Assembly: GCA_000004985.1 (NCBI GenBank)
Contig: GG738880.1
DNA length: 64,000 nucleotides
Source: Naegleria gruberi
Lineage: Eukaryota
Reading direction: 5' to 3' (one strand)
Part shown: one piece after another, positions 1,886-61,356 of the stretch
How the letters are laid out: every line of letters begins with the position of its first letter
How positions within the stretch are numbered: position 1 is the first letter of the stretch
Made by a program: the position numbers and the translations under genes
Notes under the pieces: model-generated
Told to the model about the DNA's origin: nothing
The model's input: the letters and a program-made list of their open reading frames with translations, nothing else
Database searches by the model: none

Positions 1886-3648
1886 ATGGAATGGAATTGT
1901 TGTGGTATTAAACCATTGGCTCTTTTCCTAACGTTTTTTCTCGTGTTAGGATCAGGTTTAATATTGTTTGGAGTATTGTTTGGTGTTTTGGGACCTAGAA
2001 CACCATCCGATCCAAAGGATATTGCCCGATTTAATTCTCTAGCAAAGGTTTGTTAACATATTAATTCTATAGTATTAACAAGTAATATTCCGTATGGTTT
2101 AATTTTACATTGATGAATAATTACAATGTGGATTTTAATTTAATATTATACTGTATGGTTGACATTATAATTAATAATGCGGAATTATGATATACTATTG
2201 TGCTAATATTATGTAATGATTAAATTATTATCAATTAATTGGATTAATTAAATATGTAATGATTAAATTATTATTATTAATAATGATTCGGATAATATTG
2301 ACAGCAATGGCAAGCAACCAATAGAGAATTGTTTGCAGCCTTTAATTTCAACATGACTGCAACACTTGTAAATAATGCTCCTATTCCTCCTGCTCCTTCT
2401 GTATCTGCAGTTCCCTCTCCCTCCACTTCTACTTCAACACTTCCTCCTTCAGCAAAGAAAAAGAACACCAATTTTGTCAATCTTCATGAGCCAGGTGTTG
2501 TCATTCCTCCAAAACTAAACTCTATTTATTCTAGGTTAAACTATGAGAAACCTAAAGTGGAGACCCAAAAGGTCGTCAAAACAATCAAACAATCAACTAT
2601 TGTTAAGAATACTACATTGGATGAAAATCTCATACTTTTGGATAATGTCATAATGCAGAGCAATATGGATTCTGATGTTTTTCATCCTGGCGATCCATCC
2701 TTCTTACTCAAATATGACTCTCTTAAATATGAAGTTAAAAATCCGAATCCATCCCTCTTATTCAACAAACCAATCAAGACCAATTTTGACAAGGCACTCA
2801 ATATGACCATCTCATTTACCAATACATTAATGCTGTCAGTGAAACCAGAAGATAAGGAAGATGGAAAAAAGGGAGGTCTCACCCTCATGACAAATACTCC
2901 TAATACTACTCCTCACACAACACATATTGTGAATGGACCAGTCCTTACAGTACAAGCTCCTCTCGTATATTTGTTTTTGAAGACTGAATCTCCTATTTAT
3001 GATTCTGGATCATGTAGGTATGGATTTATGGAAGATGGAAAGTGTTACCTTGTCCATAGATTGAGAGAAATTTGCCTAAAGGTAAAAATTGTCAGTGGTG
3101 TCGCAGTATTAGATAATAGTTTGTAAGTACTTTAATTTTACAAAGTATTTTAATGAATTATGGAACTAATTTCATTCTCAATTAATAATTGATAATATTC
3201 TATGTGGACATGATTAAATAATTCAAGTGGAGGATATGGATGTGGACCAACAGATTTGCCATATGTACCAGCCATTCGATCAACATTTTCTGGATTGACC
3301 TATGTTTACAGTTTACTCAATACTGGTGAAGATGTCTACAATCATACAGTACTTTTCCAAGATTTAACCATTACACTGCGGTCATCCAATGACCCATTCG
3401 TGTATGCCGAGTACATTACCAATGGTACACTCAATTTCCAACCTTGGTATCACTATTATCAAAATATTGATGATGATATTGGCTTTGTGAGAGGATTTTT
3501 TGGATTTGGAAGTTTGGGATTGGGTGTTGTGATTGTCTTACCGAGCTTGCTATTTTGTTTATTATTTTGTTGTTGCAGTCCAACTCTTAGAAAGAAATTC
3601 ATGGTTGACGATCTAAGAGAGGAGCATGCACTCCTATTGAATATGTAA
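1886..3648 (+). CDS. Membrane protein with N-terminal signal-anchor and C-terminal TM helix; 3 exons (1886..2047, 2305..3122, 3228..3648)
   Basis: Exon 1 (ATG 1886) encodes MEWNCCGIKPLALFLTFFLVLGSGLILFGVLFGVLGPRTPSDPKDIARFNSLAK, ending at donor GTTTGT at 2048. A 257-nt AT-rich intron ends ..TTGACAG at 2304. An in-frame TGA at 2299-2301 forces the acceptor to lie after it. Exon 2 continues the 265-aa ORF (P/S/T-rich). Donor GTAAGT at 3123 and a 105-nt intron ending ..TTCAAG at 3227 give a phase-2 junction that reconstitutes TTT. The frame then runs into the 3256..3648 ORF (..GFGSLGLGVVIVLPSLLFCLLFCCCS..). Confidence 0.55.
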
Positions 3649-15278: not shown

Positions 15279-16652
15279 TTATTGTTCAGTGTACTTTTTC
15301 AATTCTTGTTGGAGATTCCAATTTTCCTTTTCCAAAGCTTCAACACGTTGTCTCAATTCTTCATTTTGCTTGACCAATTCTTGTGGATTTGAAGTCTTGG
15401 CTGGCAAAACAGTCTTTGGTTGTTTGGCCTTAATTTCAACGTTTGGTTTGAAATCACGGAATTGAACATCAATTTCCTTATCTTCTGGATTCATGGAAAC
15501 CAAAGATAATTCAGCATCTTGACCAGAGAAGTAATCAGAAGCAGACAAGGCAGGAGATGGAGAAGCAGTCTTTGGATAGATATCAGATTGGAACAATTCA
15601 GACTTTCTTGGAACAGTGAATGAAATTGGAGTAATTTGATTAGCAGTCAACTTGAACAATCTGACAATTTCGTTAGAAGTAGTATCAACAGCAATCTTTG
15701 GAAGCATAGCCATACCCATTTGTGGATCAGTTGATCTAAATTCAGACAATGAGTGAATGTATGGTTCTTCATTAGTAACTTCAAAGAATCTAATGTTACC
15801 ATCACCCTTACCAGCCAAGAAGAGCAAATTAGTATCTGGATCATAGAATGGCATAATCAAACCAGAAGCCATATCAATATTAACAGTGTGCAATGGCTTT
15901 TCCAATGAACGTGGATCCCACATCATGTATTGTCTTTCAGAGGTCTTTGAGAAACCAACAGAGAACAATCTATCAGTATTGGTAATCCATTGAACACGAG
16001 ATCCCTTAGTACCACCATGACCTTCAACTTCAAGAGCAACTGCACCCTTTCTAGGATCAATAATTCTCAACTTTTTATCCTTTGAAGTGGAGGCAAACAA
16101 TGAACCATTCTTATTGAAAGAAATTGATTGAATATCTTTCCACAAATCTTTCATTTCAACTTGGCTCTTACCAGTTTCAATATCCCACAAAACAACTTTG
16201 TGATCTTGACCAGCAGTCAACAAGACATTGTTAGCAGTTGGATGGAATTCCAACAAACCAACCTTCTTCATGTGACCTTCCAATGTAACTGATGGTTCAG
16301 TAACAGTGCTTGTCAAACCATCTTGTGGAATTGACCAAATCTTGGCAGTAGCATCAACTGAACCAGTTGCCAAAATATATTGATTGAATGGATGGAACTT
16401 TAAATCCAAAACAGCACCAGTGTGGCCAGATAAAAGTGGCAAATCAGCAGCTTGTTTACCTGGAGTCTTTTGGTTCAAAACAGCAACTGAACCACCACCA
16501 CCTTGCCATGGAACAGCAACGAACAAGGCATTAGCAGCAAGCCAATTAGAATCCCAAGCACCAACATTTGGACGAATGTTTTGGAAGGCGAATTCTGCCT
16601 TGTATGGTTCACCGAAAACGTGACGATAGAGTGATGATCTGACAATGGACAT
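15279..16652 (-). CDS. corA: Coronin (actin-binding WD40 propeller with C-terminal coiled coil)
   Basis: 457-aa ORF starting MSIVRSSLYRHVFGEPYKAEF..WDSN. It contains the LLSGHTGAVLDLKFHPFN WD repeats and FSKTSERQYMMWDPRS..GLIMPFYDPDTNLLFLAGKGDGNIRFFEV. The coiled-coil tail is ELVKQNEELRQRVEALEKENWNLQQELKK. It is collinear with Dictyostelium coronin as I recall that sequence. Confidence 0.9.
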   Translation of the reverse strand: MSIVRSSLYRHVFGEPYKAEFAFQNIRPNVGAWDSNWLAANALFVAVPWQGGGGSVAVLNQKTPGKQAADLPLLSGHTGAVLDLKFHPFNQYILATGSVDATAKIWSIPQDGLTSTVTEPSVTLEGHMKKVGLLEFHPTANNVLLTAGQDHKVVLWDIETGKSQVEMKDLWKDIQSISFNKNGSLFASTSKDKKLRIIDPRKGAVALEVEGHGGTKGSRVQWITNTDRLFSVGFSKTSERQYMMWDPRSLEKPLHTVNIDMASGLIMPFYDPDTNLLFLAGKGDGNIRFFEVTNEEPYIHSLSEFRSTDPQMGMAMLPKIAVDTTSNEIVRLFKLTANQITPISFTVPRKSELFQSDIYPKTASPSPALSASDYFSGQDAELSLVSMNPEDKEIDVQFRDFKPNVEIKAKQPKTVLPAKTSNPQELVKQNEELRQRVEALEKENWNLQQELKKYTEQ

Positions 16653-17389: not shown

Positions 17390-17674
17390 ATGAACGAACA
17401 AGAAGAAAAGGCAATCAGAGAACACGACAAACAAGAAGAAAACACTCGACTCTATTATTTAGCACAGGTGCCATTTGTCAGTTCTTATGGAGGTTTGATG
17501 GGAGATTGCATGTTTTATGGACACGGCGATGTTGGAGAATCTTCTGGAAAGTATAAGGGAGCAAAGATTGAACACAAGATTCGAACGGAAGAAACTAAAC
17601 TATTTGATGATAAAGGAGAGGAAATTAAATATGATCAAGAAGAGGAGGTTGAAGAAAAACAAGTGAATCCTTAA
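17390..17674 (+). CDS. Small acidic/Lys-rich hypothetical protein (94 aa)
   Basis: The ATG is preceded by A10. The sequence has normal coding composition (MNEQEEKAIREHDKQEENTRLYYLAQVPFVSSYGG..). There is no family assignment, so this could be a genuine small gene or noise. Confidence 0.3.
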   Translation: MNEQEEKAIREHDKQEENTRLYYLAQVPFVSSYGGLMGDCMFYGHGDVGESSGKYKGAKIEHKIRTEETKLFDDKGEEIKYDQEEEVEEKQVNP

Positions 17675-17833: not shown

Positions 17834-20800
17834 ATGTCATCAACCCGATCAATTTTCCTTCAAATTTTCATCACTTCCTTCATTGTTTTGTTTTTTTCAT
17901 CATTTAATTGTTTTTTATTATTATCAGATAATGAACATGATAATAATGATGGAATAATCATACAATCGACAAGAGAATCAGGATTAAGTTTCGGATTGGT
18001 GGAAGCTAGTCTATTTTATGGAAATATTACACTTTCGAATATGAATTATTTGACCTCTCTTAGGTATAATCCAATTTATTATGATTATCCGAATGGAATT
18101 TTATATGCTTTTGGAGGAAATGATAGTAAGAAACGAGTTACAAAATCAGTGGCTGCTACTAAATCTTTAAGAGAAATTAGAAAAAGTAATGGAAACGTTT
18201 ACAATACAACTGTTCATTCAGATTTTGGAGATTTTCAACAAATTTCAACTCTCACCACTGCTATGGTCAATTATGCTGTTTATTCGATTAATAATCCAAC
18301 TGGTGGAAGATTAGTTTATTTATTTGGTGGAGATTCAACATTTGGAATTATTCAGGCCTCTAACTCAATTACTAATCTAAATTATTATTCACCAAATTTG
18401 GCAAATATTCCACCAACCTATTTTGCACACTTCATTACTGAACAATATATTTATTTAATTGGTGGTATTTCGAATGGTGGTGTTTATGATAATGGAATTT
18501 TCAGAGCTAATCTTTCAAGTTTATTAACTCAATGGGAAAGATTTGCTGATTTTCCAGTAACTATTGCAAAGGCAAATGCATTTCTATTGAATGGAGATGT
18601 TTATGTCATTGGTGGAAAGAATAATGAGACTGATGATAATCGGATTGTTTATTCTGTTCCATTGAATGATTTGGAAACACTTTCTGCTAATTTTATTGAG
18701 ATTGCTACCTTGAGCCGACCAACAGTTGGTTCTTCACTCGTATTGACAAGGGATTATGGTTTCCTATTTGGAGATGAGAATGCTGGTTCTGGAGTAGGTA
18801 TTGATACTGTCCTTGTTTTTCCCACAAGTGATGTTTCACAAATATTCGAAATTGGTATCAATGATTATTATTTCTCTTATGGTGTTCCAGTTGTGGTTTC
18901 TGGAACTATTGCTAGTTTCTTTGAGAGCACTCGTTCAGAACTTGTTGAAATTGAATTGGCATCAGATGCAGTTCCATATTGTTTCGGATTGGATGCAACG
19001 AATCCAGTTGCATGTTCGGGACATGGAAATTGTGTTGCCAATGAATACTGCAGCTGCAAGAGAGGATATTATGGCATGGATTGTTCAGTCACCTTTCTAT
19101 GCAATGGAACCATTTCCTATTCTCAGAATGTGTGCAGTGGCTACGGTTCTTGTGTCAATACGGATGAATGTTCCTGTAGAGCCAATAGAGATGGAAAGTT
19201 TTGTCAATTCAGTTATTGTAGTGGTATTCTTAATACTGATCCAACAGTTTGTAATGGAAAGGGATCTTGTGTGAATTCAGTTTGTCAGTGTGAGCAGGGA
19301 TTTTATGGAAGTGAGTGTAAGAATTATTCGTGTTACGAAATACCTTCCACTAATTCTTCAGCTGCATGTTCAGGACATGGCACTTGCAATTCACCAAATA
19401 ATTGCACTTGTTATGGACCTTATTCTGGAGACATGTGTCAGAGATTTTATTGTGGAATTTTCTCGAATGAAGATGCCGATATGGCTTGTAGTGGGAATGG
19501 AAAGTGTACTGAACCTGGCAAATGCACATGTAACAGTGGATTTTATGGAGCCAATTGTGAATCTTTTAATTGTTATGGTGAAATATTCAATAGTTCAAGA
19601 GTGTGTAATGGAAACGGTTCATGTATTTCACCAGATCACTGCACATGTCGAAATGGCTATACTGGATCAAACTGCTCAATTCCAACTTGTTTTGGAGAGA
19701 ATGGCACCTTGGCTTGTGATTCACACGGAATTTGTACAGCTCCTGATACATGTAATTGTACAGGAGGATACTATGGCAGTAGATGTTCAATGTTTACGTG
19801 TTTTGGAGTCGATTACAAGGAACCATCTGTTTGTTCTTCTGAAGGTTCTTGTGTAGCTCCAGATACTTGTGAATGTAATCAATTCTATACAGGAAATAAC
19901 TGTTCTCATTACACATGTTTTGATGTGAGAGATGACAATTCAACTTTAGTTTGTTCAGGAAATGGAAAATGTACCAAACCTAATGTTTGTTCATGTAAGG
20001 AGGGATACACTTCTGCCAATTGCTCTGCGTATTCTTGTAATGGTATTGGACATGATAATTCAAAGGTCTGTAACTCTGTTGGTGTTTGCACATCACCAAA
20101 TAATTGTACCTGTCAATCAGGTTACTATGGTTCTGATTGCCAAGTTTCAGAGTGTTTTGGAATTAGAAGTGATAATCAAAGTGTTTGTTCTGGAAGAGGT
20201 GAATGTAGTGGAAGAAATGCTTGCAACTGCTCTCAAAATTATTTAGGATCCCAATGTGAATTGACATCTTGTTTCGGCATTCTTTCGAATATATCCAATG
20301 TCTGTAATGGAAATGGAAAATGCATAGACTTTGATCAATGCTCTTGTAAGGAGGGATATTCAAGTCCCCAATGCACAGATTTCTATTGTGGAACTTTTCA
20401 TTTTAATAATTCTGCAACTTGCTCCGGAAAGGGAAGTTGTGTTTCGCCTAATTCATGCAACTGCTCAATTCCCTACTTTGGAAAGTATTGTGAAAACTTT
20501 AATTGTTTCAATATTTTGAATAACCAATCAACAGTTTGCTCTTCACATGGATCTTGCATAGCTCCCGATACTTGCAAATGTGAAGAAGGTTATTTGGGAC
20601 AAAATTGTTCCTCCTTTTCATGTTTCAACAAGACAGCTGATAGTGATGATGTTTGTTCTGGAAGAGGTTTATGTATTTCACCAAATACATGCATGTGTAC
20701 TGTGGAAGGGTTCCTTGGAATGGATTGCAACTTGTCATTGCCATTTGATATTTATTTGAATGTTTCGAATAGTATTGTTATTTATAGTGATGATAATCCA

Positions 20801-23800
20801 ATTATTGGATTCAAAGTTTTATCAAATTATAACGAATCTGATTTCTTTGGATACAGATTAACATCTTCTGGAATTGCTCCTGTCAATCAAAAGAGCAATG
20901 AATTTACTCTTGACACTAGTCAACTTTCTATTGGCCTTACCAATTATTTCCTAATTGCCAGATTGAAGAACAGCAGAACTTCCTCATCTCTAAAACTTTC
21001 TGTTGTGAAATTACAAAAATCCAGACCATCAATTGCAATTTCCAAGTTTGTATCTGTCAATGTTCCTGAATTTATTGTTTCTAGAAATGCCACAACATTT
21101 GACTTTTATTTATTGAACTTGACAATTAGTGGGCAGTCTGTTTCTTCATTATTTGGATGTAATTCTAAATGTTTAGCCGATTATTCTTATTAATATTTAC
21201 TTGACAGGTGATTCTTTGGATTCAGTTTACAATATTTCCTCTTTACAAAGTTCTTCCTATGTTCTTATCAGTGATGCAAGCAATTCTATTGGATTTAGTC
21301 CAATTCTTCAAATTCCATCCTTTACTCTAACTAAATCTCAATTGGAACAAGCAACATTTTTACAATTTGATTTTACAATTGGATCTGCAATTGGTTCCAA
21401 GAGAATTCCAATCATTTCTGCACCAAAACCAAAGAATGGTGTACTCACAGCTAGTAGCTCAATTTCAAGAGGAGTTGCCCTGACAGATGCCTACAACATT
21501 GCATCAGTTGAGTTTTCAGCTGCCACTCAATTGTTACCTCTCAGTTATGCTTATGCATTCTATGAGCCATCACAAGGCAGAGTTCTTAGAATGAGTTCAT
21601 TCTCTACTAGCTCAGTTGCCTCCATTTATTTACCATTCATTGCAAGCAGTGGAAACGTCAGTTCAGTTGACATTTATTTACTTGTTAAGGATGATTTGGA
21701 TTTTATTGATCAGTATTACATTTTCACTCTAGAAGTCACACCATATTTAGGAAATACTGATTCATTGTTCAATCAAACTCTTCCAGATTCTATCAAGACA
21801 GTTTTTGCGTATGATAATTCCATCAAACAGTCGAATTCTGTTGCAGATCAAGTTGTGAAAAACATTGAAATTCCAACAAATTCACCAGAAGCATCTCTCT
21901 CTGTCATTCAACAAATTCTTCCACAAAATGCCAATACTCCATCAGTAGTTAAGGAAGTTCAATCAAAAGTTCAATCATTCCTTGGCAGTGTCCAAACAAG
22001 TCAATCAGAGGAAATGAAAAAGTATGGTTTCGTAAAGAATCCACTCAGTAGTACTGCACTCCAATCGACTTTGAATCTCATTTCGGATTTATTCTCATCC
22101 AATAGGAAATATCCAGCTACTGGAAACACTTCAACAACAGAATCTCTAGTTTTATCATTTAGTAAGATTTTACTTTCGAATGCTTTACCGAAAGTTGTCA
22201 ATTCCAAAGATTCAGACCTACCAAATGTTAATTATCATTCCAGTGAAATGAATGTCACTGTCTCTTCACTAATTTTCGGCTCAACCACTGACAATGCAAT
22301 TCAACAAACTCTTCATGGAACAAACTCACAACTTTCATTGAATTTAAAGAAAGTTGCCAAACAATTTGGTGGAGAATCAACAAATATTGGATTATCATTG
22401 ATAACCTATTCTCAAAATGTTAAATCGGATAATTATTCTGCAAGTGTTCAATCTGGATCAACTCTGGTTGAATTTAAATATTATCAAGATGCACAAGTAG
22501 TGACATTGAAGGATTTGGATTCACCATTTACTTTGATATTCACACCACTCAATGATCAAATCAAACAAAATTTAACACTCAACACTACGAATGTTAAATG
22601 TATGTATTGGAATGAGGAAGTGTCAATGTGGAAATCAGATGGCTGTCAATATTCAAATTCCTCAAAAGATTCTATCATTTGTCAATGCACTCACACAACC
22701 AAATTCTCCACTTTTATTGAGTATACTTCATCCTATTCGAACACAACTAAATTGACCGAAACTGAACTATTGTACATTGCCAGCGTGTACAGTGCAGAGA
22801 TTAGTTTTGGAATAATGTTTGCAATCTGCTCTGCCATCATTCTCATTGTCTTGATTATTTACAGGAAGGAACAACCATTACTTTCAAGATTCTTGACTCC
22901 ATTCTTGGGAATGCTTGCTCTATTAGTGGAAAGTGTTTTAATTTCAATTGTGCAAAGATCTGTACTTGTTAGTCAACTCTTACCAAGTCAATCTAAAATG
23001 TGGGAATCTGGAGGCGAAACTGCCACTAATATTGTTGGAAATGTCACTATGATTATTGTAAACACATTGAATTTGACAGCCATCTTGGCATATGTCATCC
23101 AAGTTATTAGATTCCAGCTCCTCAAATATTTATATGATGTGATAGCTCAGAAGAATAATGGTCAATCATTCATGATGAAAGTATTGAGATTCGTCACTTC
23201 TAAAAAGCTTTTCGTCACTCTGATTGTCATTTCATTAATCTTTAATTTGTGCTATTGGTTAATGTGGGTCTTGTTAGTGAGATTGAGTGTTATTACTGCA
23301 TCTGTTTATACTGAGGCAGTTTCCATTTCGTATACAGTTATTATATTCGGATATAGTGTGATTATTAGTATTATAGCAATTGTGGATATTATTTCTAGTA
23401 CAAGACAAAAGAAGATTAAGAGGAGAAGAAGGTCAACTGTCAATTCATTGTCTTCAACTAGCTCAACAAAATCATCCCAGTCACTTATTCCATCAAAATC
23501 TACTCGAAGATTCTTTTATTTGGATGCTCCTTTATTTTTCAGATCTGAAATGTTCATGTATTTGGTCTGTTTTGCACTCATGATTATTCAACAAGTTATT
23601 GGATTAGTTTCTAATAATTTCAGATTTATTGATGCAAATGCTTATGAAATTGCAATTTATTTTGATGGAATTCGATTTGCATTTGAAGTATTGTACACTT
23701 GTGTGTATTTACTTGTATTTGGAGGTTTTGCTATTCTTGTACTAATTGTCTACAAGGTAAAAATTAACAAGAGAAGAAAACAACTGGTCAACCAAGATTT

Positions 23801-24281
23801 ACAAGATACTGAAATGATTGAAACCATCTCGGATGACAGAGGTTACGACCTCTTTGAACAATTCTGCATCCAAGAATTAGCTACAGAAAATCTCTACCTC
23901 TTGGAATTACTGAGATACAATCCAGAGTTTGTGGAAGGAAGAAGTATGAATGAATTGCCAAACTTTTTAGAAACCATTCATGATTTGTTCATCAAGACTG
24001 GAGCCGTTTCTGAAGTGAATATTCCATCAACAACTAGAAAGAGATTCCTGCAAATGATGAAACTTGTAAAGGAGGAAAAGAAAATGTCAGTTGAAAAGAT
24101 AACTCTTGAAGTTCAGCAATGTTTTGAAGAATTGCATGATCAAGTTTCTGTTAATTTGGGAGATACCTTTTCAAGATTTGTTCTAACAGAAATTTATGAG
24201 CAATACAGGAATCAACGTGCTTTGAAAATGGAATTGGTCAAACAAGCCAATATTGATATTGAATTGGAAAATTTGAAATAA
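17834..24281 (+). CDS. Giant adhesion-GPCR-like receptor: signal peptide, Kelch-like beta-propeller, ~25 tenascin-type EGF-like repeats, GPS/GAIN motif, 7TM domain and C-terminal RGS domain; 2 exons (17834..21158, 21208..24281)
   Basis: ORF 17834..21193 (1119 aa) has an N-terminal hydrophobic signal sequence. It has Kelch-like blades (YAFGGNDS, YLFGGDST, YLIGGISNGGVYDNGIFRAN, VYVIGGKNNETDDNRIVYSVPLNDLE). From ~18990 to ~20740 there are repeated CSGxGxCxxxxxCxCxxGYxGxxC EGF modules. ORF 21201..24281 (1026 aa) is in the +1 frame. The join is made by a short intron: donor GTAATT at 21159 (49 nt) or GTTTAG at 21171 (37 nt), with acceptor ..TTGACAG at 21207. Both options are in frame and give ..LFGC|DSLD... 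Exon 2 carries the GPS motif CMYWNEEVSMWKSDGCQYSNSSKDSIICQCTHTTKFS (~22591..22710). Seven hydrophobic helices follow (~22790..23760). Then comes an RGS domain DRGYDLFEQFCIQELATENLYLLELLRYNPEF..FSRFVLTEIYEQY (~23836..24220). Confidence 0.8.
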
Positions 24282-28361: not shown

Positions 28362-31300
28362 ATGAATGATTACGTAGCCAACTATTTAATCAAGAATAAT
28401 TTCATGCTCACTGCATTGGAATTCTATCAAGAACTTTTGGAAGAAGGACAAGAATTAAAACTTTTGAGAGATTACTTTGAAAACAAGGAATATAAGAATG
28501 AACAAGCATCATCATCCAACAGCAATGGTATGATGATTCAAGTCGATTCACAACATACAAAAGCTCTCGAAGAACAATTAAAAAAGAAGGATGAAACCAT
28601 TTCAATGATGGAATACGAAATTAGACTTCTCCAATCAGATATTGCCAAATTAAAAGGTCAAGCAAAGGAAAGTTTTGTTATACCAACAGTAAACAAAACA
28701 GCTAAAGCAAATGAAAACACTGAAGGTAATGAAGATGAAAATGCCGAAGGAAATGATGAACCTACAACACCAAATGTAGATCACAAGATGGCCTCCGAAC
28801 CATTAACAGTACACGAAAAGCAAGTTGTAAATTATCTTGTTAAAGATTACTTGGTTAAACAAGGATATAAAATCAGTGCTATTAGTTTCACTGATGAAGT
28901 ACACGAAATGGACATGTTCAATTTAGATGAAGTTTTATCAAATAGTGATGAAAATGAATTGCCAATAGGTTTGTCATATCTGTATAGACACTATTATAGT
29001 GGAGGTGATAAGACCAAACAAAATATGAAGGACACAAAGGCACTCAGAGAAGCTCTTGCTCAATTGGAACAAAAGGATAAATTGATTCAATCTTTGGAAA
29101 AGTCAATTCAACGTCAAGATAAAGCAATAGAAAAGCTCAAGTCTCAACTTGAATCTAATGCAACATCAGCAACTACTTCAGATGAAACACCACTAAATTC
29201 AAGCACTGATGAATCTAACTCAGTTGTTTCACAAGATGTTATGGTACTTCAAGCCAAACTTAGAGAATTTGAAAATCAAGAATCGAGTATTATTCAAATT
29301 TTGGGTGAAAAACTCCCTGCTCTTTTGGAAACAGCCAAATCAAACAAGAGACAAGAATTCATGCCAATTCTTGTTGCAACCCTCCAATCACACCCAGATG
29401 CCGAAGTGAGAGAAACACTCTCCGAATCTCTATTCAATCTCATCAAGAAACCTGATGATCAACAACGTCAAATGATCATTAATGGATGTATTAGTTTAGC
29501 TAGACGTATTTCTCCAGATAGATTTGAAAAGGAACTTCTCCCTCAATGTTGGAAACAAATTACTCACAAGTATACTGAAAGAAAAATACTGGTTGCTGAG
29601 GCCTGTGGTGAATTATCTCACTACGTAAAGGCCTCTCTGAGACCAACAATGCTCTTGACAACTCTCTTCAAACTCATGGAAGATAAAACTGATGAAGTGA
29701 GAGCTTCAGTTGTTATCAACTTGGCCAAATTAGTCAAGACTTTCACAGAGGAAGAAGATGTTGAAAGTAAGAGTAAATATTTCCAAATCGAAGAAATGAC
29801 ACTCAAATTCCTGTACGATAAGTCAGAAGCTGTTGAAGATGCTGCAACAACACAACTTGTACCATCTCTCATAACATGGTGCTTTACCTTTGATTATTTA
29901 TTTGAAAAGTTTGCTCCAACCCTGTTGAGTAACATTGAGAATTTGATTAAGAAGAGACTCAAGAGTGGATCAAATGCCAGTAGCTCCAAGATTGTTGTCC
30001 TTTTGAGATGTTTCAGTGGTGTCATACCATACATTCTCAAATTAATGACCAAGACAATGCCAGCAGAAATTCACAACTCTGAAAATACCAAGGATGAACA
30101 ATCCATGAAAAAGATTATGGATAAGTATATTGGAGAAACTTCTCTTTCGGATTTGGAAAAGACCAAGTCTGCATCTTGGAAGGGTCTTTACTGGTTACTC
30201 AATGTTTGCACCAGAAGACTCTTATCTGTTGCTGCCTCTGTAAACATTGAACATACCAATGTAAGTATATGGATTTTAATTGTTAATATCAACAATATTT
30301 AAAGATTTCTAAAGAAATTTACACAATTTTCAATGGATTATGTGAAGCATTTGGAGAACCTGTTATTTCAAAGATTTTCGAACAAAAGATTGTTTCCCTC
30401 TTGGAAACAAGCTCAGACACCATCATTGACGGAACTATTGAAGTTGTAAAGAAGGAAAAGGACACTGAAAGAACCAGTGTAACTATTGTAAAGGAAAGAC
30501 TCTTACCAGTGTATATTTGTGGTGTATTACCATTCAGTCCTAAGGAAAGAATTTCTGAAGTACTGAGAACACTCATTATCAATGTATCCATCTCAGAGAG
30601 AACATGGGAAAGCTCACATATGCCATTCTTGTACAATGCCCTTATTAGCGGTGTAACCATGAATGAAAAGCTGAGAAATGACATTCTTACTGTTGTATGC
30701 AAACTTGCTGTTAATCCTTCCAAGGTTGTTCGTTCATCAGTTGCTGATATTTTAACTGAATTAATTGAACCATTGGAATCTGAAATTTTGGCAGCTCAAA
30801 TCTTGCCTGCACTCATTACAGTTGCCTCTGATATGGAATCTGACATTAAGATGAAGGCTGTTAGAGGTTTGGGAATTTTGGCATGTAGTTTGAGTGAAGT
30901 AGCAGATTTTAACAAGCTCTCCACTCAATTTGACATGCTTTTAGATTCTAGAGATAGAAGTATGTTCAAGGAAGTGTTGAACGTTTTTTCAGAAATTATT
31001 CCTCAAGTTGATCCATACTTCCGTGATAGTTTCATGATTAAGAAATTAGTCTGGCTAGGTAAACAAAATAACCAAAATAGTGATTTGAGAGATCGTAGAG
31101 ATACTGCCAATTTATTATTGGACAATTATCGTGCTCTTAATGGATGTATTATGACCGATGAAATTATTTCTGACATTATTGAAGGATTGAAACTCTTGTC
31201 GAATGATTGTGAACTCATTACTGACTCTTCTGTAGCATCATTTGTTTCACAAATGAAAGAAGAATTGGAAGCCATTGTCCAACAACATGCCAAGGAACAA

Positions 31301-48690: not shown

Positions 48691-48740
48691 NNNNNNNNNN
48701 NNNNNNNNNNNNNNNNNNNNNNNNNNNNNNNNNNNNNNNN
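48691..48740. other. Assembly gap (50 N) between duplication units A and B
   Basis: Run of N. Confidence 1.
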
Positions 48741-50184: not shown

Positions 50185-50569
50185 NNNNNNNNNNNNNNNN
50201 NNNNNNNNNNNNNNNNNNNNNNNNNNNNNNNNNNNNNNNNNNNNNNNNNNNNNNNNNNNNNNNNNNNNNNNNNNNNNNNNNNNNNNNNNNNNNNNNNNNN
50301 NNNNNNNNNNNNNNNNNNNNNNNNNNNNNNNNNNNNNNNNNNNNNNNNNNNNNNNNNNNNNNNNNNNNNNNNNNNNNNNNNNNNNNNNNNNNNNNNNNNN
50401 NNNNNNNNNNNNNNNNNNNNNNNNNNNNNNNNNNNNNNNNNNNNNNNNNNNNNNNNNNNNNNNNNNNNNNNNNNNNNNNNNNNNNNNNNNNNNNNNNNNN
50501 NNNNNNNNNNNNNNNNNNNNNNNNNNNNNNNNNNNNNNNNNNNNNNNNNNNNNNNNNNNNNNNNNNNNN
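50185..50569. other. Assembly gap (385 N) inside HK copy B
   Basis: Run of N. Confidence 1.
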
Positions 50570-51638: not shown

Positions 51639-54202
51639 TTACATGTAATCTACAACAGTTGTATGAGGTGGATAAACTTCCTGAACTTGATTGTTGACAG
51701 TTGAATAATATTGCTTGAACAATTCAAATCTGGTGTTCTTTCCAGAAGATTCCAATATGTGAGCAAAATACCCAATGCTCTTAATCAATTTTCTGGCAGG
51801 ATACGATTTGATGTATTCATCATTTTGAACAACAGCTGTCAAATTAGCTTCATAATCTCTGAGCATGTTAATAATTTCATCATTATTCAACCCTTCAAAG
51901 TTCTTGTCATAGAAGAAATATTTTCCAAACTCTGAGAATTTCTGATTTGCCTTTTGCTGTTCCAACTCGTACATCCATTCTTGAAATTTTGTTACAATTT
52001 TTGTAAACCTTTCAACTTACCATCACCTTCAATAGTATTTTCCTTTTCAACTTCATAAACAACCGAAACTTTTCCTTCTTGTGAATTTTCAACAACTTCC
52101 ATCAACTTGTCAACTGGTCTGGATACAAACTTTTTCAGAGTTGACTCATCCATTGTTCCCTCATCAGCCAACACATCACATCTCAAGTCGTCTGCCAAAA
52201 AAGCAAGTTTTTCAGCATTGATAGGAACTGAACCAACAACAGAAAATGTTCTAAATGAACTAGTTCCCAAATTTCCTGCATAGCACTTTCCACTACTGAC
52301 TCCAATGGCACATCTGATATGGGTTTTCGATGTTTCATTGATTGTTACTAATAATTTTCTCAATTTCAAAGCAGCTTCCAAAGCCAAAACATTTGACGAT
52401 TTTCGACCATTTCCTTCCACAGACGAAACATAAATCTGATAATCATCCACAGTAATAACTTGAAAATCACCTTGTATAGATTTAGAAACAGCACTCAACC
52501 CAGAAACAATCTTTGAAAATATGTGTCCAATATCAGCAACATTCAAATCTGTTGAAAAATCAATTAATTTGATTCTTACAACTGCTCCTTGTTTACAATT
52601 CAGACCAATTTTGAAAAGAGAATTTCCCACTTCTTGAACTTTGGATGCCATTGAGGAAGTTCTTGAACTATTGTTACTAAAATGACGACTTCCATGAGAT
52701 TCCAAATCTATTGAGGCAGCATCACTATTCGAAACTGGGTGATTCTTATGTTTCTTTGATTTGGTGTTGGCTTGGGATTCATCTGTTTTTTTGGTATTTT
52801 CTTCTTTCATATTTCTCAATTGTAAAAATACACTTTCTGGAATAAATGTCTTAATTTCGTTTAACCATACTGTCATTTCATATAAATAAAGGTAAATCAA
52901 ATCGACTTCTTTAAACTTGCTTGCAGTAATATTCACCTGATCTAGTTCCATAGTTTTGATTTTCATAAATTCTCTTTCTAAAATTGTAAATGGATTTGTG
53001 ACAATGTGTCCAATAGTGATAGACATGATTACACCAACAATGATAATCAAAATGGTAATACCAACAGATACTCCAGTTGTAATATTTGTTACCATTTCAA
53101 CTTCTTGCTTATCAACCACAATGAAAACATTCCATTCCAAGTTGACCAATGTGAAATTTGACTTTACAATGAAAAAACCATCAAAGTCAATAAAAATTGG
53201 TGTGTTAGTCCACCCCTTATAATTCTGATAAACCCTGTTCAATAAACTTCCAGAACCCTTATCAATCAAGTCAAATAACGAAACTCTAGAACTTCCATCC
53301 AAAGCAGTAGTATTGATATTTCCACCAATGACAAGATTATTGGTTTCTGCCACAATCACATAACCACTAGTGAGTACTTGTACTGTTTTCAAAAAGCTTT
53401 CAATAATTCTCAATGAAATATTCGTTTTTGTAATGCCAACTACCTTTTTAATTCCATTGCTATAATAGGTAGGATCATATAATTTGGCACAATAGTAAGT
53501 TGTATAACTTGGATTGCCAGGAATTGCATAAGGAATGCCGAATACACCATCTAATCCCAAAGAGGAATAAAAACCAAAAGTAGTTTTCCAATAACTTTGA
53601 GCATTCACTTCATAATTAGGAGATGCCTTGACCAGTGACTTGGCAGTTGTGTTAGGAGTTGAAGTATCCAATGAAATTGCATATAACATAAATTCAGTCG
53701 TTGGTGTATGATACCAAACAACAATTTCATTGGGTGGAGCTCCGTAAACATTGACACTGTCAAGACTGTCATTAAAAAATAAACCAATTCCGTATGGCTT
53801 GAAAGTGTTGTAATATTTGTAAAGATAGGCAAGCGATGGTTGACGAGGAACAAGTCCTAAATTGTAATCCTCAGCCATTGACTCAGTTGCTGAAATATAA
53901 GGTTTCAGTTGACCGTTCATATAGTTCAGTACTGAACCACTGATGGTATGCATCAATTGAGTTGATAAGGAACTCAGGGCTTCTCGAGATCCTATGAAAG
54001 AAGATAACCAAATTAAAATTGAACAGCAAACTAATAGAGAAGTGATTAGAATAATGATAAATGTTCTAACCGAAATGATTCCACCACATGTTGTTGGTTT
54101 GATTGGAGCTATTTTGGTTTTCTCCTCGGTTTCGTCTTCGTTGAGGAGAGGATTTTGTTCTTTGAGACTGTCTAGGGATGCTGTGAATGGTTGTATTTTC
54201 AT
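51639..54202 (-). CDS. Receptor-like 2-TM membrane protein with cyclase-homology-like cytoplasmic domain (paralog 2); 2 exons (52021..54202, 51639..51979)
   Basis: 736-aa ORF plus a 111-aa ORF joined by a 41-nt intron (51980..52020). The donor is GTAAGT and the acceptor is ..TTTCAAG, at phase 1. The junction ..TIEGDG-E-WMYELEQQKAN.. aligns with the contiguous ..VAQDEWLYELDNLNSN.. of paralog 1. The cytoplasmic region is ..VVRIKLIDFSTDL..ITVDDYQIYV..IRCAIGVSSGKCYAGNLGTSSFRTFSVVGSVPINAEKLAFLADDL. Both putative metal-binding Asp positions appear retained. Confidence 0.55.
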
Positions 54203-55452: not shown

Positions 55453-58400
55453 NNNNNNNNNNNNNNNNNNNNNNNNNNNNNNNNNNNNNNNNNNNNNNNN
55501 NNNNNNNNNNNNNNNNNNNNNNNNNNNNNNNNNNNNNNNNNNNNNNNNNNNNNNNNNNNNNNNNNNNNNNNNNNNNNNNNNNNNNNNNNNNNNNNNNNNN
55601 NNNNNNNNNNNNNNNNNNNNNNNNNNNNNNNNNNNNNNNNNNNNNNNNNNNNNNNNNNNNNNNNNNNNNNNNNNNNNNNNNNNNNNNNNNNNNNNNNNNN
55701 NNNNNNNNNNNNNNNNNNNNNNNNNNNNNNNNNNNNNNNNNNNNNNNNNNNNNNNNNNNNNNNNNNNNNNNNNNNNNNNNNNNNNNNNNNNNNNNNNNNN
55801 NNNNNNNNNNNNNNNNNNNNNNNNNNNNNNNNNNNNNNNNNNNNNNNNNNNNNNNNNNNNNNNNNNNNNNNNNNNNNNNNNNNNNNNNNNNNNNNNNNNN
55901 NNNNNNNNNNNNNNNNNNNNNNNNNNNNNNNNNNNNNNNNNNNNNNNNNNNNNNNNNNNNNNNNNNNNNNNNNNNNNNNNNNNNNNNNNNNNNNNNNNNN
56001 NNNNNNNNNNNNNNNNNNNNNNNNNNNNNNNNNNNNNNNNNNNNNNNNNNNNNNNNNNNNNNNNNNNNNNNNNNNNNNNNNNNNNNNNNNNNNNNNNNNN
56101 NNNNNNNNNNNNNNNNNNNNNNNNNNNNNNNNNNNNNNNNNNNNNNNNNNNNNNNNNNNNNNNNNNNNNNNNNNNNNNNNNNNNNNNNNNNNNNNNNNNN
56201 NNNNNNNNNNNNNNNNNNNNNNNNNNNNNNNNNNNNNNNNNNNNNNNNNNNNNNNNNNNNNNNNNNNNNNNNNNNNNNNNNNNNNNNNNNNNNNNNNNNN
56301 NNNNNNNNNNNNNNNNNNNNNNNNNNNNNNNNNNNNNNNNNNNNNNNNNNNNNNNNNNNNNNNNNNNNNNNNNNNNNNNNNNNNNNNNNNNNNNNNNNNN
56401 NNNNNNNNNNNNNNNNNNNNNNNNNNNNNNNNNNNNNNNNNNNNNNNNNNNNNNNNNNNNNNNNNNNNNNNNNNNNNNNNNNNNNNNNNNNNNNNNNNNN
56501 NNNNNNNNNNNNNNNNNNNNNNNNNNNNNNNNNNNNNNNNNNNNNNNNNNNNNNNNNNNNNNNNNNNNNNNNNNNNNNNNNNNNNNNNNNNNNNNNNNNN
56601 NNNNNNNNNNNNNNNNNNNNNNNNNNNNNNNNNNNNNNNNNNNNNNNNNNNNNNNNNNNNNNNNNNNNNNNNNNNNNNNNNNNNNNNNNNNNNNNNNNNN
56701 NNNNNNNNNNNNNNNNNNNNNNNNNNNNNNNNNNNNNNNNNNNNNNNNNNNNNNNNNNNNNNNNNNNNNNNNNNNNNNNNNNNNNNNNNNNNNNNNNNNN
56801 NNNNNNNNNNNNNNNNNNNNNNNNNNNNNNNNNNNNNNNNNNNNNNNNNNNNNNNNNNNNNNNNNNNNNNNNNNNNNNNNNNNNNNNNNNNNNNNNNNNN
56901 NNNNNNNNNNNNNNNNNNNNNNNNNNNNNNNNNNNNNNNNNNNNNNNNNNNNNNNNNNNNNNNNNNNNNNNNNNNNNNNNNNNNNNNNNNNNNNNNNNNN
57001 NNNNNNNNNNNNNNNNNNNNNNNNNNNNNNNNNNNNNNNNNNNNNNNNNNNNNNNNNNNNNNNNNNNNNNNNNNNNNNNNNNNNNNNNNNNNNNNNNNNN
57101 NNNNNNNNNNNNNNNNNNNNNNNNNNNNNNNNNNNNNNNNNNNNNNNNNNNNNNNNNNNNNNNNNNNNNNNNNNNNNNNNNNNNNNNNNNNNNNNNNNNN
57201 NNNNNNNNNNNNNNNNNNNNNNNNNNNNNNNNNNNNNNNNNNNNNNNNNNNNNNNNNNNNNNNNNNNNNNNNNNNNNNNNNNNNNNNNNNNNNNNNNNNN
57301 NNNNNNNNNNNNNNNNNNNNNNNNNNNNNNNNNNNNNNNNNNNNNNNNNNNNNNNNNNNNNNNNNNNNNNNNNNNNNNNNNNNNNNNNNNNNNNNNNNNN
57401 NNNNNNNNNNNNNNNNNNNNNNNNNNNNNNNNNNNNNNNNNNNNNNNNNNNNNNNNNNNNNNNNNNNNNNNNNNNNNNNNNNNNNNNNNNNNNNNNNNNN
57501 NNNNNNNNNNNNNNNNNNNNNNNNNNNNNNNNNNNNNNNNNNNNNNNNNNNNNNNNNNNNNNNNNNNNNNNNNNNNNNNNNNNNNNNNNNNNNNNNNNNN
57601 NNNNNNNNNNNNNNNNNNNNNNNNNNNNNNNNNNNNNNNNNNNNNNNNNNNNNNNNNNNNNNNNNNNNNNNNNNNNNNNNNNNNNNNNNNNNNNNNNNNN
57701 NNNNNNNNNNNNNNNNNNNNNNNNNNNNNNNNNNNNNNNNNNNNNNNNNNNNNNNNNNNNNNNNNNNNNNNNNNNNNNNNNNNNNNNNNNNNNNNNNNNN
57801 NNNNNNNNNNNNNNNNNNNNNNNNNNNNNNNNNNNNNNNNNNNNNNNNNNNNNNNNNNNNNNNNNNNNNNNNNNNNNNNNNNNNNNNNNNNNNNNNNNNN
57901 NNNNNNNNNNNNNNNNNNNNNNNNNNNNNNNNNNNNNNNNNNNNNNNNNNNNNNNNNNNNNNNNNNNNNNNNNNNNNNNNNNNNNNNNNNNNNNNNNNNN
58001 NNNNNNNNNNNNNNNNNNNNNNNNNNNNNNNNNNNNNNNNNNNNNNNNNNNNNNNNNNNNNNNNNNNNNNNNNNNNNNNNNNNNNNNNNNNNNNNNNNNN
58101 NNNNNNNNNNNNNNNNNNNNNNNNNNNNNNNNNNNNNNNNNNNNNNNNNNNNNNNNNNNNNNNNNNNNNNNNNNNNNNNNNNNNNNNNNNNNNNNNNNNN
58201 NNNNNNNNNNNNNNNNNNNNNNNNNNNNNNNNNNNNNNNNNNNNNNNNNNNNNNNNNNNNNNNNNNNNNNNNNNNNNNNNNNNNNNNNNNNNNNNNNNNN
58301 NNNNNNNNNNNNNNNNNNNNNNNNNNNNNNNNNNNNNNNNNNNNNNNNNNNNNNNNNNNNNNNNNNNNNNNNNNNNNNNNNNNNNNNNNNNNNNNNNNNN

Positions 58401-61057: not shown

Positions 61058-61356
61058 GGTTTGGGTTTGGGTTTGGGTTTGGGTTTGGGTTTGGGTTTGG
61101 GTTTGGGTTTGGGTTTGGGTTTGGGTTTGGGTTTGGGTTTGGGTTTGGGTTTGGGTTTGGGTTTGGGTTTGGGTTTGGGTTTGGGTTTGGGTTTGGGTTT
61201 GGGTTTGGGTTTGGGTTTGGGTTTGGGTTTGGGTTTGGGTTTGGGTTTGGGTTTGGGTTTGGGTTTGGGTTTGGGTTGGGTTTGGGTTTGGGTTTGGGTT
61301 TGGGTTTGGGTTTGGGTTTGGGTTTGGGTTTGGGTTTGGGTTTGGGTTTGGGTTAA
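61058..61356. repeat. (GGGTTT)n hexanucleotide microsatellite, ~50 units, one imperfection; telomere-repeat-like
   Basis: The array is a direct read of ggtttgggtttggg... from ~61058 to the N-gap at 61357. The six-frame ORFs across it (VWVW.., GLGL/GFGF.., KPKP.., TQTQ..) are artefacts of the repeat. Confidence 0.9.

What the first reader, a model, noticed from the sequence alone, without database searches (positions are those of the whole stretch)
17834..24281. Adhesion-GPCR-like receptor fused to its own RGS domain, with a Kelch + ~25xEGF ectodomain
One ~2,140-aa reading frame, made of two ORFs joined by a 37- or 49-nt in-frame intron, combines six elements. These are a cleavable signal sequence, Kelch-like propeller blades, a long array of tenascin-type EGF modules, a textbook GPS motif (CxxW..W..GCx..CxC-THTT-KFS), seven hydrophobic helices and a C-terminal RGS box (FEQFCIQELATENLYLL..FSRFVLTEIYEQY). 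A 7TM + RGS arrangement is the logic of plant AtRGS1, a receptor-GAP that keeps G-alpha off until a ligand arrives. Here it is grafted onto an adhesion-GPCR-type ectodomain. The GPS has HTT instead of HL|T, so autoproteolysis may be lost. This is the most unusual architecture in the window.
Basis: partly seen in the sequence, partly recalled or inferred. Interest (0 to 1): 0.8.

Follow-up and report, generated by a model that had tools for sequence, protein, structure and literature searches.

The report
Naegleria seven-helix receptor with built-in RGS
This is a real, intact gene of the amoeba Naegleria gruberi for a giant surface receptor whose cytoplasmic tail carries its own G-protein "off switch" (an RGS domain), but the gene model is already public and this receptor class was described in the sister species N. 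fowleri in 2022.

Summary
The two ORFs (17834..21193 and 21201..24281, + strand) are one gene. It is Naegleria gruberi NAEGRDRAFT_80461 (XP_002675075.1, UniProt D2VLM2, "predicted protein"). The public model is 100% identical to my spliced product from Met70 onward and uses the 37-nt intron 21171..21207.

An intronless N. fowleri homologue aligns across the junction, so the fusion is not an artefact.

The seven-helix domain defines a family of only 107 clusters at 50% identity. It has no sequence-level link to adhesion/secretin GPCRs or to any solved GPCR chain. Named members are all Naegleria.

The H-T|T cleavage-site variant is conserved across the family (His 76/77, +1 Thr 76/77). This argues against simple decay of autoproteolysis.

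Bosch et al. 2022 described 28 N. fowleri "7TM RGS" proteins with GPS, EGF and lectin ectodomains and showed GAP activity. The most likely function is therefore a ligand- or contact-regulated receptor-GAP. It is real and interesting biology, but already known. The increments are the REJ domain, the corrected start and the conserved HTT site.

The parts
17834..21170 (+). Exon 1, from ATG 17834 to the preferred donor. The alternative exon end is 21158.
   Evidence: ORF. In-frame stop upstream at 17774. The public model XP_002675075.1 starts at Met70 (window 18041) in the same frame.
21171..21207 (+). Intron of 37 nt (GTTTAG...ACAG). The alternative donor at 21159 (GTAATT) gives 49 nt.
   Evidence: Both restore the frame. 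The 37-nt form keeps FG-C-NSK-C, which matches the family motif [FL]G-C-x3-C about 500 aa upstream of the GPS, and it is used in the public model. Other candidate short introns (41-44 nt) exist in the window.
21208..24281 (+). Exon 2, through stop codon TAA 24279..24281.
17834..17926 (+). N-terminal hydrophobic signal sequence or signal anchor (residues 1-31).
   Evidence: Kyte-Doolittle peak 2.2 at residues 3-31. Cleavage was not tested.
18086..18958 (+). Kelch-type beta-propeller-like region (residues about 85-375). The boundaries and a blade count of about six are my reading of the motif spacing; the Pfam matches cover only residues 158-329.
   Evidence: Kelch_1 25.9 bits (gathering 20.1); Kelch_KLHDC2 E = 3e-6, Kelch_6 and NANM below cut-off. 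Repeated hhhhGG motifs are visible. The AlphaFold model has pLDDT 38 and gave no significant fold match.
18980..20728 (+). Array of 15 tenascin/teneurin-type six-cysteine EGF modules (residues 383-965, period about 39 aa).
   Evidence: Regex count of 15 with 90 Cys. EGF_2 165 bits, EGF_TEN 156 bits, EGF_Teneurin 134 bits.
20873..21761 (+). REJ domain (residues 1014-1293), interrupted by the intron.
   Evidence: PF02010 30.7 bits (gathering 25), one stretch covering profile positions 153-420 of 452. REJ was found in 5 of 23 family members, best E = 2e-30, and is precomputed for P0004.
21756..22724 (+). GAIN domain: helical subdomain A (21756..22181) and beta-sandwich subdomain B (22191..22724). 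The GPS motif is at 22596..22721.
22692..22700 (+). Equivalent of the GPS cleavage triad, His-Thr|Thr, followed by the Stachel-like T-K-F-S-T-F-I-E.
   Evidence: Family-wide conservation: H 76/77, P1 T 73/77, P1' T 76/77, +6 F 74/77. Invariant H and T in A5.
22791..23762 (+). Seven-transmembrane domain. Approximate helices: 22791-22862, 22893-22964, 23037-23108, 23205-23282, 23322-23396, 23544-23612, 23688-23762.
23397..23543 (+). Third intracellular loop, basic and Ser/Thr-rich (KKIKRRRRSTVNSLSSTSSTKSS...). Candidate phosphorylation or regulatory loop.
   Evidence: 13 K+R in 49 residues. Low pLDDT in the model. The regulatory role is inferred.
23823..24206 (+). RGS box (residues 1981-2108), R4-like.

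Best explanation
The locus is Naegleria gruberi gene NAEGRDRAFT_80461. It has two exons and encodes a surface glycoprotein of about 2136 aa from the heterolobosean '7TM RGS' family.

Its outside part consists of a Kelch-type region, 15 EGF modules, a REJ domain and a GAIN/GPS domain. This part is placed to bind a matrix, prey or cell-surface ligand, or to sense force. The GAIN domain sits directly on a seven-helix bundle. The cytoplasmic tail ends in an RGS box that accelerates GTP hydrolysis on G-alpha subunits.

By analogy with AtRGS1 and the N. fowleri proteins tested biochemically, the resting receptor holds fast-exchanging ('self-activating') G-alpha proteins in the GDP state. Engagement of the ectodomain would relieve or redirect this GAP activity. 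That could happen through the conserved H-T|T GPS site and its Stachel-like strand, and/or through phosphorylation and endocytosis via the basic Ser-rich third loop.

Shown here: gene structure, domain composition, topology, family membership and conservation of the RGS contact residues and GPS triad.

Inferred: GAP activity of this particular protein, its G-alpha partners, the ligand, GPS cleavage and the coupling mechanism.
For: - Identity: the product is 100% identical to XP_002675075.1 / D2VLM2 apart from the start and intron choice.
- One gene: a single HSP to N. fowleri FDP41_006917 (query 848-2066, E = 1e-154) crosses the junction. That homologue is one intronless ORF of 6384 nt. The REJ Pfam match spans the junction.
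- Domains: (EGF, REJ, GPS, RGS above gathering scores; Kelch_1 marginal).
- Topology: positive-inside rule, and 41 of 43 N-x-S/T sequons lie in the ectodomain.
- Family: the seven-helix profile finds 107 clusters, nearly all 1200-2700 aa with the helices about 200 aa from the C-terminus. Of 23 scanned, 22 have RGS, 18 EGF and 13 GPS.
- RGS competence: equivalents of RGS4 E83, E87, N88, N128, D163 and R167 are conserved here and invariant or near-invariant in the family.
- Literature: N. fowleri has 28 7TM RGS proteins, several with GPS, EGF and lectin ectodomains. Their RGS domains bind G-alpha subunits and act as GAPs on them, including self-activating ones (PMC9283941). N. gruberi has about 44 G-alpha genes (PMC8584482).
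Against: - There are no transcript or protein data for this gene, and no paper cites the locus tag.
- GAP activity was measured only for three N. fowleri RGS domains. Their orthology to this protein is not established, and the closest N. fowleri homologue is only 29-33% identical and not syntenic.
- The model of the GAIN-7TM-RGS part has only moderate confidence (pLDDT 62.6, pTM 0.38, five-sequence alignment).
- P1 of the GPS is Thr rather than the canonical Leu, so cleavage is uncertain.
- Nothing shows that ligand binding changes GAP activity in any Naegleria 7TM RGS protein. PMC9283941 states that this is undetermined.
Confidence: 0.75

Rival explanations
1. It is a conventional activating (GEF-type) adhesion-like GPCR. 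GPS cleavage or force exposes the Stachel-like T-K-F-S-T-F-I-E peptide, which activates the seven-helix bundle to load GTP on G-alpha. The tethered RGS would serve only as a built-in terminator or kinetic scaffold that sharpens the signal.
For: - A GAIN domain sits directly on a GPCR-fold bundle, and the best structural hit is full-length CD97.
- The H(-2)/T(+1) pair and the F+3, F+6, [ILV]+7 pattern of tethered agonists are conserved family-wide.
- PMC9283941 reports only one clear classical GPCR candidate in N. fowleri, so another GEF source would be useful.
Against: - The seven-helix domain has no sequence similarity to any GPCR class with known GEF activity.
- Several Naegleria G-alpha subunits self-activate and need no GEF (PMC9283941).
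- The conserved strand is also the last beta-strand of the GAIN fold, so its conservation may be purely structural.
Confidence: 0.15
2. It is a polycystin-1-like sensor. The REJ-GAIN module marks it as a relative of PKD1/PKDREJ/suREJ, working with a TRP-type channel partner. The RGS box would be a G-alpha docking site rather than a catalytic GAP.
For: - REJ is above the gathering score and is followed by GAIN/GPS, as in polycystin-1.
- REJ recurs in family members at E down to 2e-30.
Against: - There are seven, not eleven, hydrophobic segments.
- The first cytoplasmic loop is 10 residues, so there is no PLAT domain.
- There is no PKD-channel Pfam hit.
- The structural hits for the helices are GPCRs, not polycystin.
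- The RGS contact residues are fully conserved, which argues for catalysis.
Confidence: 0.05
3. Gene-model artefact. The two ORFs are separate genes, or one gene broken by a sequencing frameshift, or a pseudogene, rather than exons joined by a very short intron.
For: - The two frames overlap by 14 nt (21177..21190), so a single-base assembly error could also join them.
- The 37-nt donor GTTTAG is weak.
- The scaffold is a draft with several N gaps.
Against: - Homology is continuous across the junction in an intronless N. fowleri gene and within a single REJ match.
- ORF 2 begins with TTG and has no signal sequence, although it encodes extracellular domains.
- Both ORFs are long and intact.
- Short GT..AG introns of 41-44 nt are plausible elsewhere in the window.
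- A frameshift repair would still give one fused protein.
Confidence: 0.03

Closest known systems
Naegleria fowleri '7TM RGS' proteins (Bosch et al. 2022, J Biol Chem, PMC9283941), e.g. FDP41_006917 and FDP41_004429
   Same: Same family by sequence: the seven-helix profile gives E of 1e-147 or lower. The order is the same: ectodomain with EGF repeats, GPS, seven helices, C-terminal RGS. The GPS has the same H-T-T site.
   Different: - This is the N. gruberi copy, only 29-33% identical to the nearest N. fowleri protein and not syntenic.
- It has 15 EGF modules against about 4-5 in FDP41_006917.
- It has one short intron where the N. fowleri gene has none.
- REJ and Kelch are not mentioned in the paper.
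- No biochemistry exists for this protein.
Arabidopsis AtRGS1 (plant 7TM-RGS receptor-GAP)
   Same: The design logic is the same: seven helices followed by a cytoplasmic RGS box that would act on self-activating G-alpha (PMC9283941, PMC8584482). A Ser/Thr-rich cytoplasmic region could mediate phosphorylation-dependent regulation (inferred).
   Different: - AtRGS1 has a short N-terminus with no GAIN/GPS, EGF, REJ or Kelch (own knowledge).
- No member of the hit list that was looked up by name (20 of the 107 clusters) is a plant protein, and the seven-helix profile hits nothing outside this one family.
- Common ancestry of the helices is therefore not shown. The fusion may be convergent.
Adhesion (class B2) GPCRs such as CD97/ADGRE5, latrophilin, BAI3, CELSR
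   Same: A large adhesive ectodomain with EGF modules, and a GAIN domain with GPS immediately before the first helix. The GAIN fold is confirmed structurally. The Stachel-like conserved strand is present.
   Different: - The helices do not match 7tm_2 or any solved adhesion GPCR by sequence.
- P1 of the triad is Thr rather than Leu.
- The tail carries an RGS box, which no animal adhesion GPCR has.
- The predicted effect on G proteins is the opposite one (off rather than on).
Polycystin-1 family (PKD1, PKDREJ, sea-urchin suREJ)
   Same: The tandem REJ domain followed by GAIN/GPS next to the membrane.
   Different: Seven rather than eleven helices, no PLAT domain and no channel-like C-terminal half. 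It has an RGS box instead of the polycystin-1 coiled-coil tail.
Fungal class VI GPCRs (Aspergillus GprK, Magnaporthe MoRgs7) and other protist 7TM-RGS proteins (Trichomonas, chytrids, filastereans)
   Same: Seven helices plus a C-terminal RGS (PMC3971589, PMC10794492, PMC6405168).
   Different: Those proteins lack the GAIN/GPS and the giant ectodomain. They did not appear among the seven-helix profile hits that carry names.

Membership tests
Heterolobosean 7TM RGS family (as in N. fowleri, PMC9283941) | Seven-helix domain homologous to that of the Naegleria 7TM RGS proteins | tested here: met
   36-48% identity to four Naegleria homologues over the helices. The profile retrieves 107 clusters, 54 of them at E <= 1e-30.
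Heterolobosean 7TM RGS family (as in N. fowleri, PMC9283941) | RGS domain C-terminal to the seventh helix, on the cytoplasmic side | tested here: met
   PF00615 36 bits at residues 1981-2108. The positive-inside rule places the C-terminus inside. RGS is present in 22 of 23 family members.
Heterolobosean 7TM RGS family (as in N. fowleri, PMC9283941) | GAP activity of the RGS box on Naegleria G-alpha | not testable with these tools
   Only the contact residues could be checked. The E87/N88/N128/D163/R167 equivalents are conserved.
Adhesion GPCR (class B2) | GAIN domain with GPS immediately N-terminal to the first helix | tested here: met
Adhesion GPCR (class B2) | Seven-helix domain of the secretin/adhesion type (Pfam 7tm_2) | tested here: not met
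Adhesion GPCR (class B2) | Canonical H-L|T/S autoproteolytic triad and actual cleavage | tested here: inconclusive
   His(-2) and Thr(+1) are present and conserved in 76/77. P1 is Thr (73/77) instead of Leu. Cleavage cannot be tested by computation.
AtRGS1-type plant 7TM-RGS | Seven helices plus a C-terminal RGS box in one polypeptide | tested here: met
AtRGS1-type plant 7TM-RGS | Sequence homology of the seven-helix domain to AtRGS1 | tested here: inconclusive
   An exhaustive profile search of 1.84 billion representatives gave only 107 hits. Of the 20 clusters looked up by name, the named ones are all Naegleria and the rest are unnamed metagenome or run-assembly contigs.
Polycystin-1 / PKDREJ family | REJ domain followed by GPS | tested here: met
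   REJ 30.7 bits (gathering 25) at residues 1014-1293. GPS at 1572-1613.
Polycystin-1 / PKDREJ family | Eleven helices with a PLAT domain after the first, and a channel-like C-terminal six-helix unit | tested here: not met
   Seven hydrophobic segments only. The first cytoplasmic loop is 10 residues. No PLAT or PKD_channel hit.
Kelch beta-propeller | Repeated Kelch motifs forming a six-bladed propeller | tested here: inconclusive
   Kelch_1 25.9 bits (gathering 20.1) on the isolated N-terminal piece. Other Kelch models reach E = 3e-6 to 2e-4 but fall below their cut-offs. The model has pLDDT 38 and no fold hit at E <= 0.001, although many of the weak hits are Kelch propellers.

The most novel reading that the evidence does not exclude
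The family could be an 'inverse adhesion GPCR'. In this reading a polycystin-type REJ-GAIN sensor, with a conserved non-canonical H-T|T self-cleavage site and a tethered Stachel-like peptide, mechanically gates a G-protein OFF switch (the receptor-GAP) instead of an ON switch.

The GAIN-seven-helix coupling would then exist in Discoba, far outside the animal/amoebozoan lineages where it is usually discussed. That would imply either a very ancient origin of GAIN-controlled seven-helix receptors or independent assembly of the same module.
Probability: 0.15. Interest if true: 0.65.

Novelty: already known. Interest (0 to 1): 0.3.

Why it matters
The finding confirms that free-living Naegleria builds giant adhesion-type ectodomains onto a seven-helix receptor that carries its own RGS "off switch". 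This is the organisation proposed to control self-activating G proteins without classical GPCRs. That was already reported for the pathogen N. fowleri, and the N. gruberi gene model is already public, so the main claim adds no new kind of system.

The useful increments are:
- a corrected start that restores the signal sequence missing from the public model;
- comparative support for the 37-nt intron;
- recognition of a REJ-GAIN (polycystin-like) tandem in this family;
- the observation that the unusual H-T|T site and the following F-x-x-F-[ILV] strand are almost invariant across about 77 divergent family members.

The last point makes GPS cleavage and tethered-peptide control of a receptor-GAP a concrete question. 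It is testable in a non-pathogenic, culturable amoeba.

Tried and rejected
- Word-index protein searches returned only 2, 4 and 0 hits and missed the identical public protein. The exhaustive representative search was needed to find it. The N-terminal Kelch region found nothing at all, and a local phmmer against 113 family proteins found only itself.
- Exact look-ups of the coronin neighbour, the downstream ORF and my 2132-aa product failed, because public models differ in start or intron choice. The contig look-ups for P0001 and P0006 also failed, so N. gruberi paralogue gene structures could not be compared.
- The AlphaFold model of the Kelch region (two-sequence alignment) was too poor to use (pLDDT 38) and its Foldseek hits are not significant.
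- The afdb50 fold library was unavailable.
- I preferred the 49-nt intron at first because its donor is better (GTAATT against GTTTAG). It was demoted after the family C-x3-C motif was found.
- An upstream exon from ORF 17390..17674 was considered and rejected. ATG 17834 is followed directly by a signal-like hydrophobic stretch, and the upstream ORF encodes an unrelated acidic peptide.
- Polycystin-1 membership was rejected (seven helices, no PLAT).
- Adhesion-GPCR membership was rejected on the seven-helix criterion.
- The papers by Anantharaman 2011 and Bradford 2013 could not be read. A search for intron statistics of N. gruberi was unproductive.
Full report
**Residue numbering.** Residue numbers are those of the 2132-aa product of the 49-nt splice, which I used in all computations. 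For the preferred 37-nt splice (2136 aa), add 4 to every residue after 1109. Window coordinates do not depend on this choice.

**1. The observation.** The + strand carries ORF 17834..21193 (1119 aa, ATG) and ORF 21201..24281 (1026 aa), in frames that differ by +1.
- Two GT..AG introns, 21159..21207 (49 nt) and 21171..21207 (37 nt), each restore a single frame. They give 2132 or 2136 aa with one terminal stop.
- ATG 17834 is the first start after an in-frame TGA at 17774. It is followed by a 24-residue hydrophobic stretch.

**2. One gene, and which gene.** An exhaustive profile search (section 5) returned P0006. This protein is identical to my product from Met70 to the end, except that it keeps the four residues NSKC, meaning it uses the 37-nt intron.
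- P0006 is Naegleria gruberi NAEGRDRAFT_80461 = XP_002675075.1 = EFC42331.1 = UniProt D2VLM2, named only "predicted protein". The window is therefore N. gruberi, and the fused model is already public.
- Independent support for the fusion:
  - BLASTP against N. fowleri FDP41_006917 (P0003, 2127 aa) gives one HSP, query 848-2066, E = 1e-154. It runs straight across the junction at residue 1109.
  - That N. fowleri gene is a single uninterrupted ORF of 6384 nt.
  - One Pfam REJ match covers residues 1014-1293, with 95 residues in exon 1 and 184 in exon 2.
- The N. fowleri neighbours differ from those in the window, so strict orthology is not established.

**3. Which intron.** The 49-nt donor (GTAATT) looks more like the GTAAGT donors of other candidate short introns in the window, for example 30261..30304 and 52020..51980.
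- Close family members, however, share a motif [FL]-G-C-x3-C about 500 residues upstream of the GPS. Examples are SFLG-CEGNC, YFLG-CGKNC and, in the N. fowleri homologue, GN-CSFSC.
- Only the 37-nt splice reproduces it (LFG-CNSKC). The 49-nt splice leaves a single unpaired cysteine.
- I therefore prefer 21171..21207, in agreement with the public model. Transcript data are needed to settle it.
- The public model starts at Met70 and so lacks the hydrophobic N-terminus. A start at 17834 makes better biological sense for a protein with a 1600-residue ectodomain.

**4. Domains.**
- *Whole-protein Pfam scan.* EGF_2 165 bits, EGF_TEN 156, EGF_Teneurin 134 and RGS 28.7 (gathering 23.9).
- *Piecewise scan.* Kelch_1 25.9 bits (gathering 20.1) plus four sub-threshold Kelch-type models in residues 158-329. 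REJ 30.7 bits (gathering 25). GPS 40.5-44.1 bits (gathering 22.5). RGS 36.1 bits. Nothing for the helices even at E <= 10.
- *EGF array.* It has exactly 15 six-cysteine modules (residues 383-965), not about 25.
- *GPS.* It has the canonical four cysteines and two tryptophans: C1573-x2-W...W-x4-C1588...C1600-x-C1602.
- *Helices and topology.* Seven hydrophobic segments follow (1637-1960). The loops obey the positive-inside rule: K+R of 3, 6 and 13 on the inside against 1, 0 and 2 on the outside. 41 of 43 N-x-S/T sequons lie before the first helix. The ectodomain is therefore outside and the RGS box inside.
- *AlphaFold model of residues 1262-2132* (five-sequence alignment, pLDDT 62.6). It shows a helical subdomain, a beta-sandwich, seven long helices and a nine-helix bundle.
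  - Foldseek puts full-length inactive CD97 first (E = 1.3e-9, 727 columns). The GAIN domains of BAI3, CELSR1 and latrophilin follow at E about 1e-7, then RGS1/8/4/16 with target-normalised TM-scores of 0.7-0.83.
  - The GAIN and RGS folds are therefore supported. The helices have a generic GPCR fold with no class preference.
- *Kelch model.* It was unusable (pLDDT 38).

**5. The family.** A profile of the helices alone, built from five Naegleria sequences, was searched against 1.84 billion representatives.
- It found only 107 proteins at E <= 0.001, 54 of them at E <= 1e-30. Almost all are 1200-2700 aa, with the helices about 200 residues from the C-terminus.
- Of 23 members scanned with Pfam, 22 have RGS, 18 EGF_2, 13 GPS, 5 REJ, 5 RCC1, 4 NHL, 1 C-type lectin and 1 Kelch. 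The ectodomains are shuffled, but the GPS-7TM-RGS core is constant.
- I looked up 20 of the 107 clusters by name. The named ones are N. gruberi or N. fowleri (one further member, P0005, is labelled N. lovaniensis). The others, including all the weak hits checked, come from unnamed metagenome or run-assembly contigs. Eight of the ten weakest hits scanned with Pfam also match RGS at E <= 0.01, four above the gathering score.
- The same profile hits no PDB chain at E <= 10.
- The seven-helix domain is thus a family of its own. No sequence-level link to adhesion/secretin GPCRs, or to any solved GPCR, was detectable.

**6. Functional residues.** The family RGS profile matches the R4 subfamily (RGS5, RGS16, RGS4) at E about 1e-10.
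- I aligned to rat RGS4, whose sequence I supplied from memory. Its numbering is self-consistent with the known S85/E87/N88/N128/D163/R167.
- The G-alpha contact residues map as follows: E83>E1998, E87>E2002, N88>N2003, N128>N2046, D163>D2094, S164>T2095, R167>R2098.
- The E, E-N and N positions are invariant, and D-T..R-F nearly invariant, across the 23 aligned members. The box looks catalytically competent.
- At the GPS, 77 distinct family segments read C-x-C-x-H-T-T-x-F-x-x-F-[ILV]. His is present in 76, P1 is Thr in 73 (Ala 3, Val 1), +1 is Thr in 76 and +6 is Phe in 74. The +3 Phe was required by the search pattern.
- Mean identity across these proteins is only about 19%. The catalytic base and nucleophile of the canonical H-L|T triad (PMC13197933) are nevertheless kept almost without exception, while P1 is a family-specific Thr.
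- This argues against decay of the site. It cannot show cleavage, and the strand is also a structural element of the GAIN fold.

**7. What is known.** Bosch et al. 2022 (PMC9283941) reported the following for N. fowleri.
- There are 28 seven-transmembrane proteins with C-terminal RGS domains.
- A number of them have GPS motifs, and several have EGF repeats and lectin domains "reminiscent of the adhesion GPCRs".
- RGS domains of three of them bind G-alpha subunits and act as GAPs on them, including self-activating ones.
- The authors compare them with AtRGS1. They state that receptor function and the effect of extracellular cues remain undetermined. They do not mention REJ, Kelch or polycystin.

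De Mendoza et al. 2014 (PMC3971589) found 7TM-RGS architectures in many bikonts, chytrids, filastereans and ichthyosporeans. N. gruberi is reported to have about 44 G-alpha genes (PMC8584482). No paper in the library cites this locus tag or its accessions.

**8. Most likely mechanism.** The protein is most likely a receptor-GAP.
- The ectodomain binds a surface, prey or matrix ligand, or senses force.
- The GAIN domain couples it to the helices.
- The cytoplasmic RGS box keeps fast-exchanging G-alpha subunits in the GDP state until engagement relieves or relocates it.
- The domain layout, topology, family membership and residue conservation are shown here. Activity, partners, ligand, cleavage and coupling are inferred from AtRGS1 and the N. 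fowleri biochemistry.
- Rivals:
  - An activating adhesion-type GPCR with a built-in terminator. This is not excluded.
  - A polycystin-1-like sensor. It fails on helix number and the missing PLAT domain.
  - A gene-model artefact. This is contradicted by sections 2 and 3.

**9. Verdict.**
- It is wrong to treat the architecture as exceptional. It is one of a large Naegleria family that is already published, and the gene model is already public.
- The suggestion that autoproteolysis is lost is not favoured by the family-wide conservation.
- Novelty: already known. Interest is modest (0.3), mainly for the REJ-GAIN pairing and the conserved H-T|T site, which make a tethered-peptide-gated GAP testable.

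Noticed in passing
window 61058-61354: About 50 tandem copies of the hexamer GGTTTG at 99% identity, directly abutting a 50-nt N gap at 61357-61406. It could be a telomere-like or satellite repeat at an assembly join.
   Followed up: no
window 55453-60125, 50185-50569, 48691-48740, 61357-61406, 63383-63432: Runs of N (assembly gaps), the largest 4.7 kb. GC drops to 22-31% in the flanking windows. The right-hand quarter of the window is poorly assembled draft scaffold.
   Followed up: no
window 15279-16652 (- strand): An intact 457-aa ORF that reads like a coronin-type WD-repeat protein with a C-terminal coiled coil lies 1.2 kb upstream of the receptor gene. This is my reading of the translation; no domain search was run. 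The exact sequence is not in the protein collection, so the public model probably differs in start or splicing.
   Followed up: partly
window 18041 versus 17834: The public model XP_002675075.1 starts at Met70 (18041) and omits the signal-like hydrophobic N-terminus encoded from ATG 17834 in the same open frame. This is probably a mis-called start. The N. gruberi paralogue model XP_002680023.1 (P0001) likewise starts exactly at the GPS site (MFSTFIE...), so it is probably truncated.
   Followed up: partly
window 30261-30304 (+), 52020-51980 (-), 3123-3227 (+), 26300-26199 (-): Candidate short GT..AG introns with GTAAGT or GTATGT donors join adjacent long ORFs of neighbouring genes. This suggests that 40-105-nt introns are normal in this genome region.
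   Followed up: no
family members P0006-P0108 (not in the window): Ectodomains of the same GPS-7TM-RGS core are shuffled between paralogues: RCC1 propellers (5 of 23), NHL/teneurin-type propellers (4 of 23), a C-type lectin, a beta-helix and K319L-like PKD domains. This points to rapid diversification of ligand-binding modules on a constant signalling core.
   Followed up: partly
window 17390-17674 (+): A small 94-aa acidic ORF (MNEQEEKAIREHDKQEE...) lies immediately upstream of the receptor gene on the same strand. It could in principle be spliced to the frame opening at 17777, but it looks like a separate small gene.
   Followed up: no
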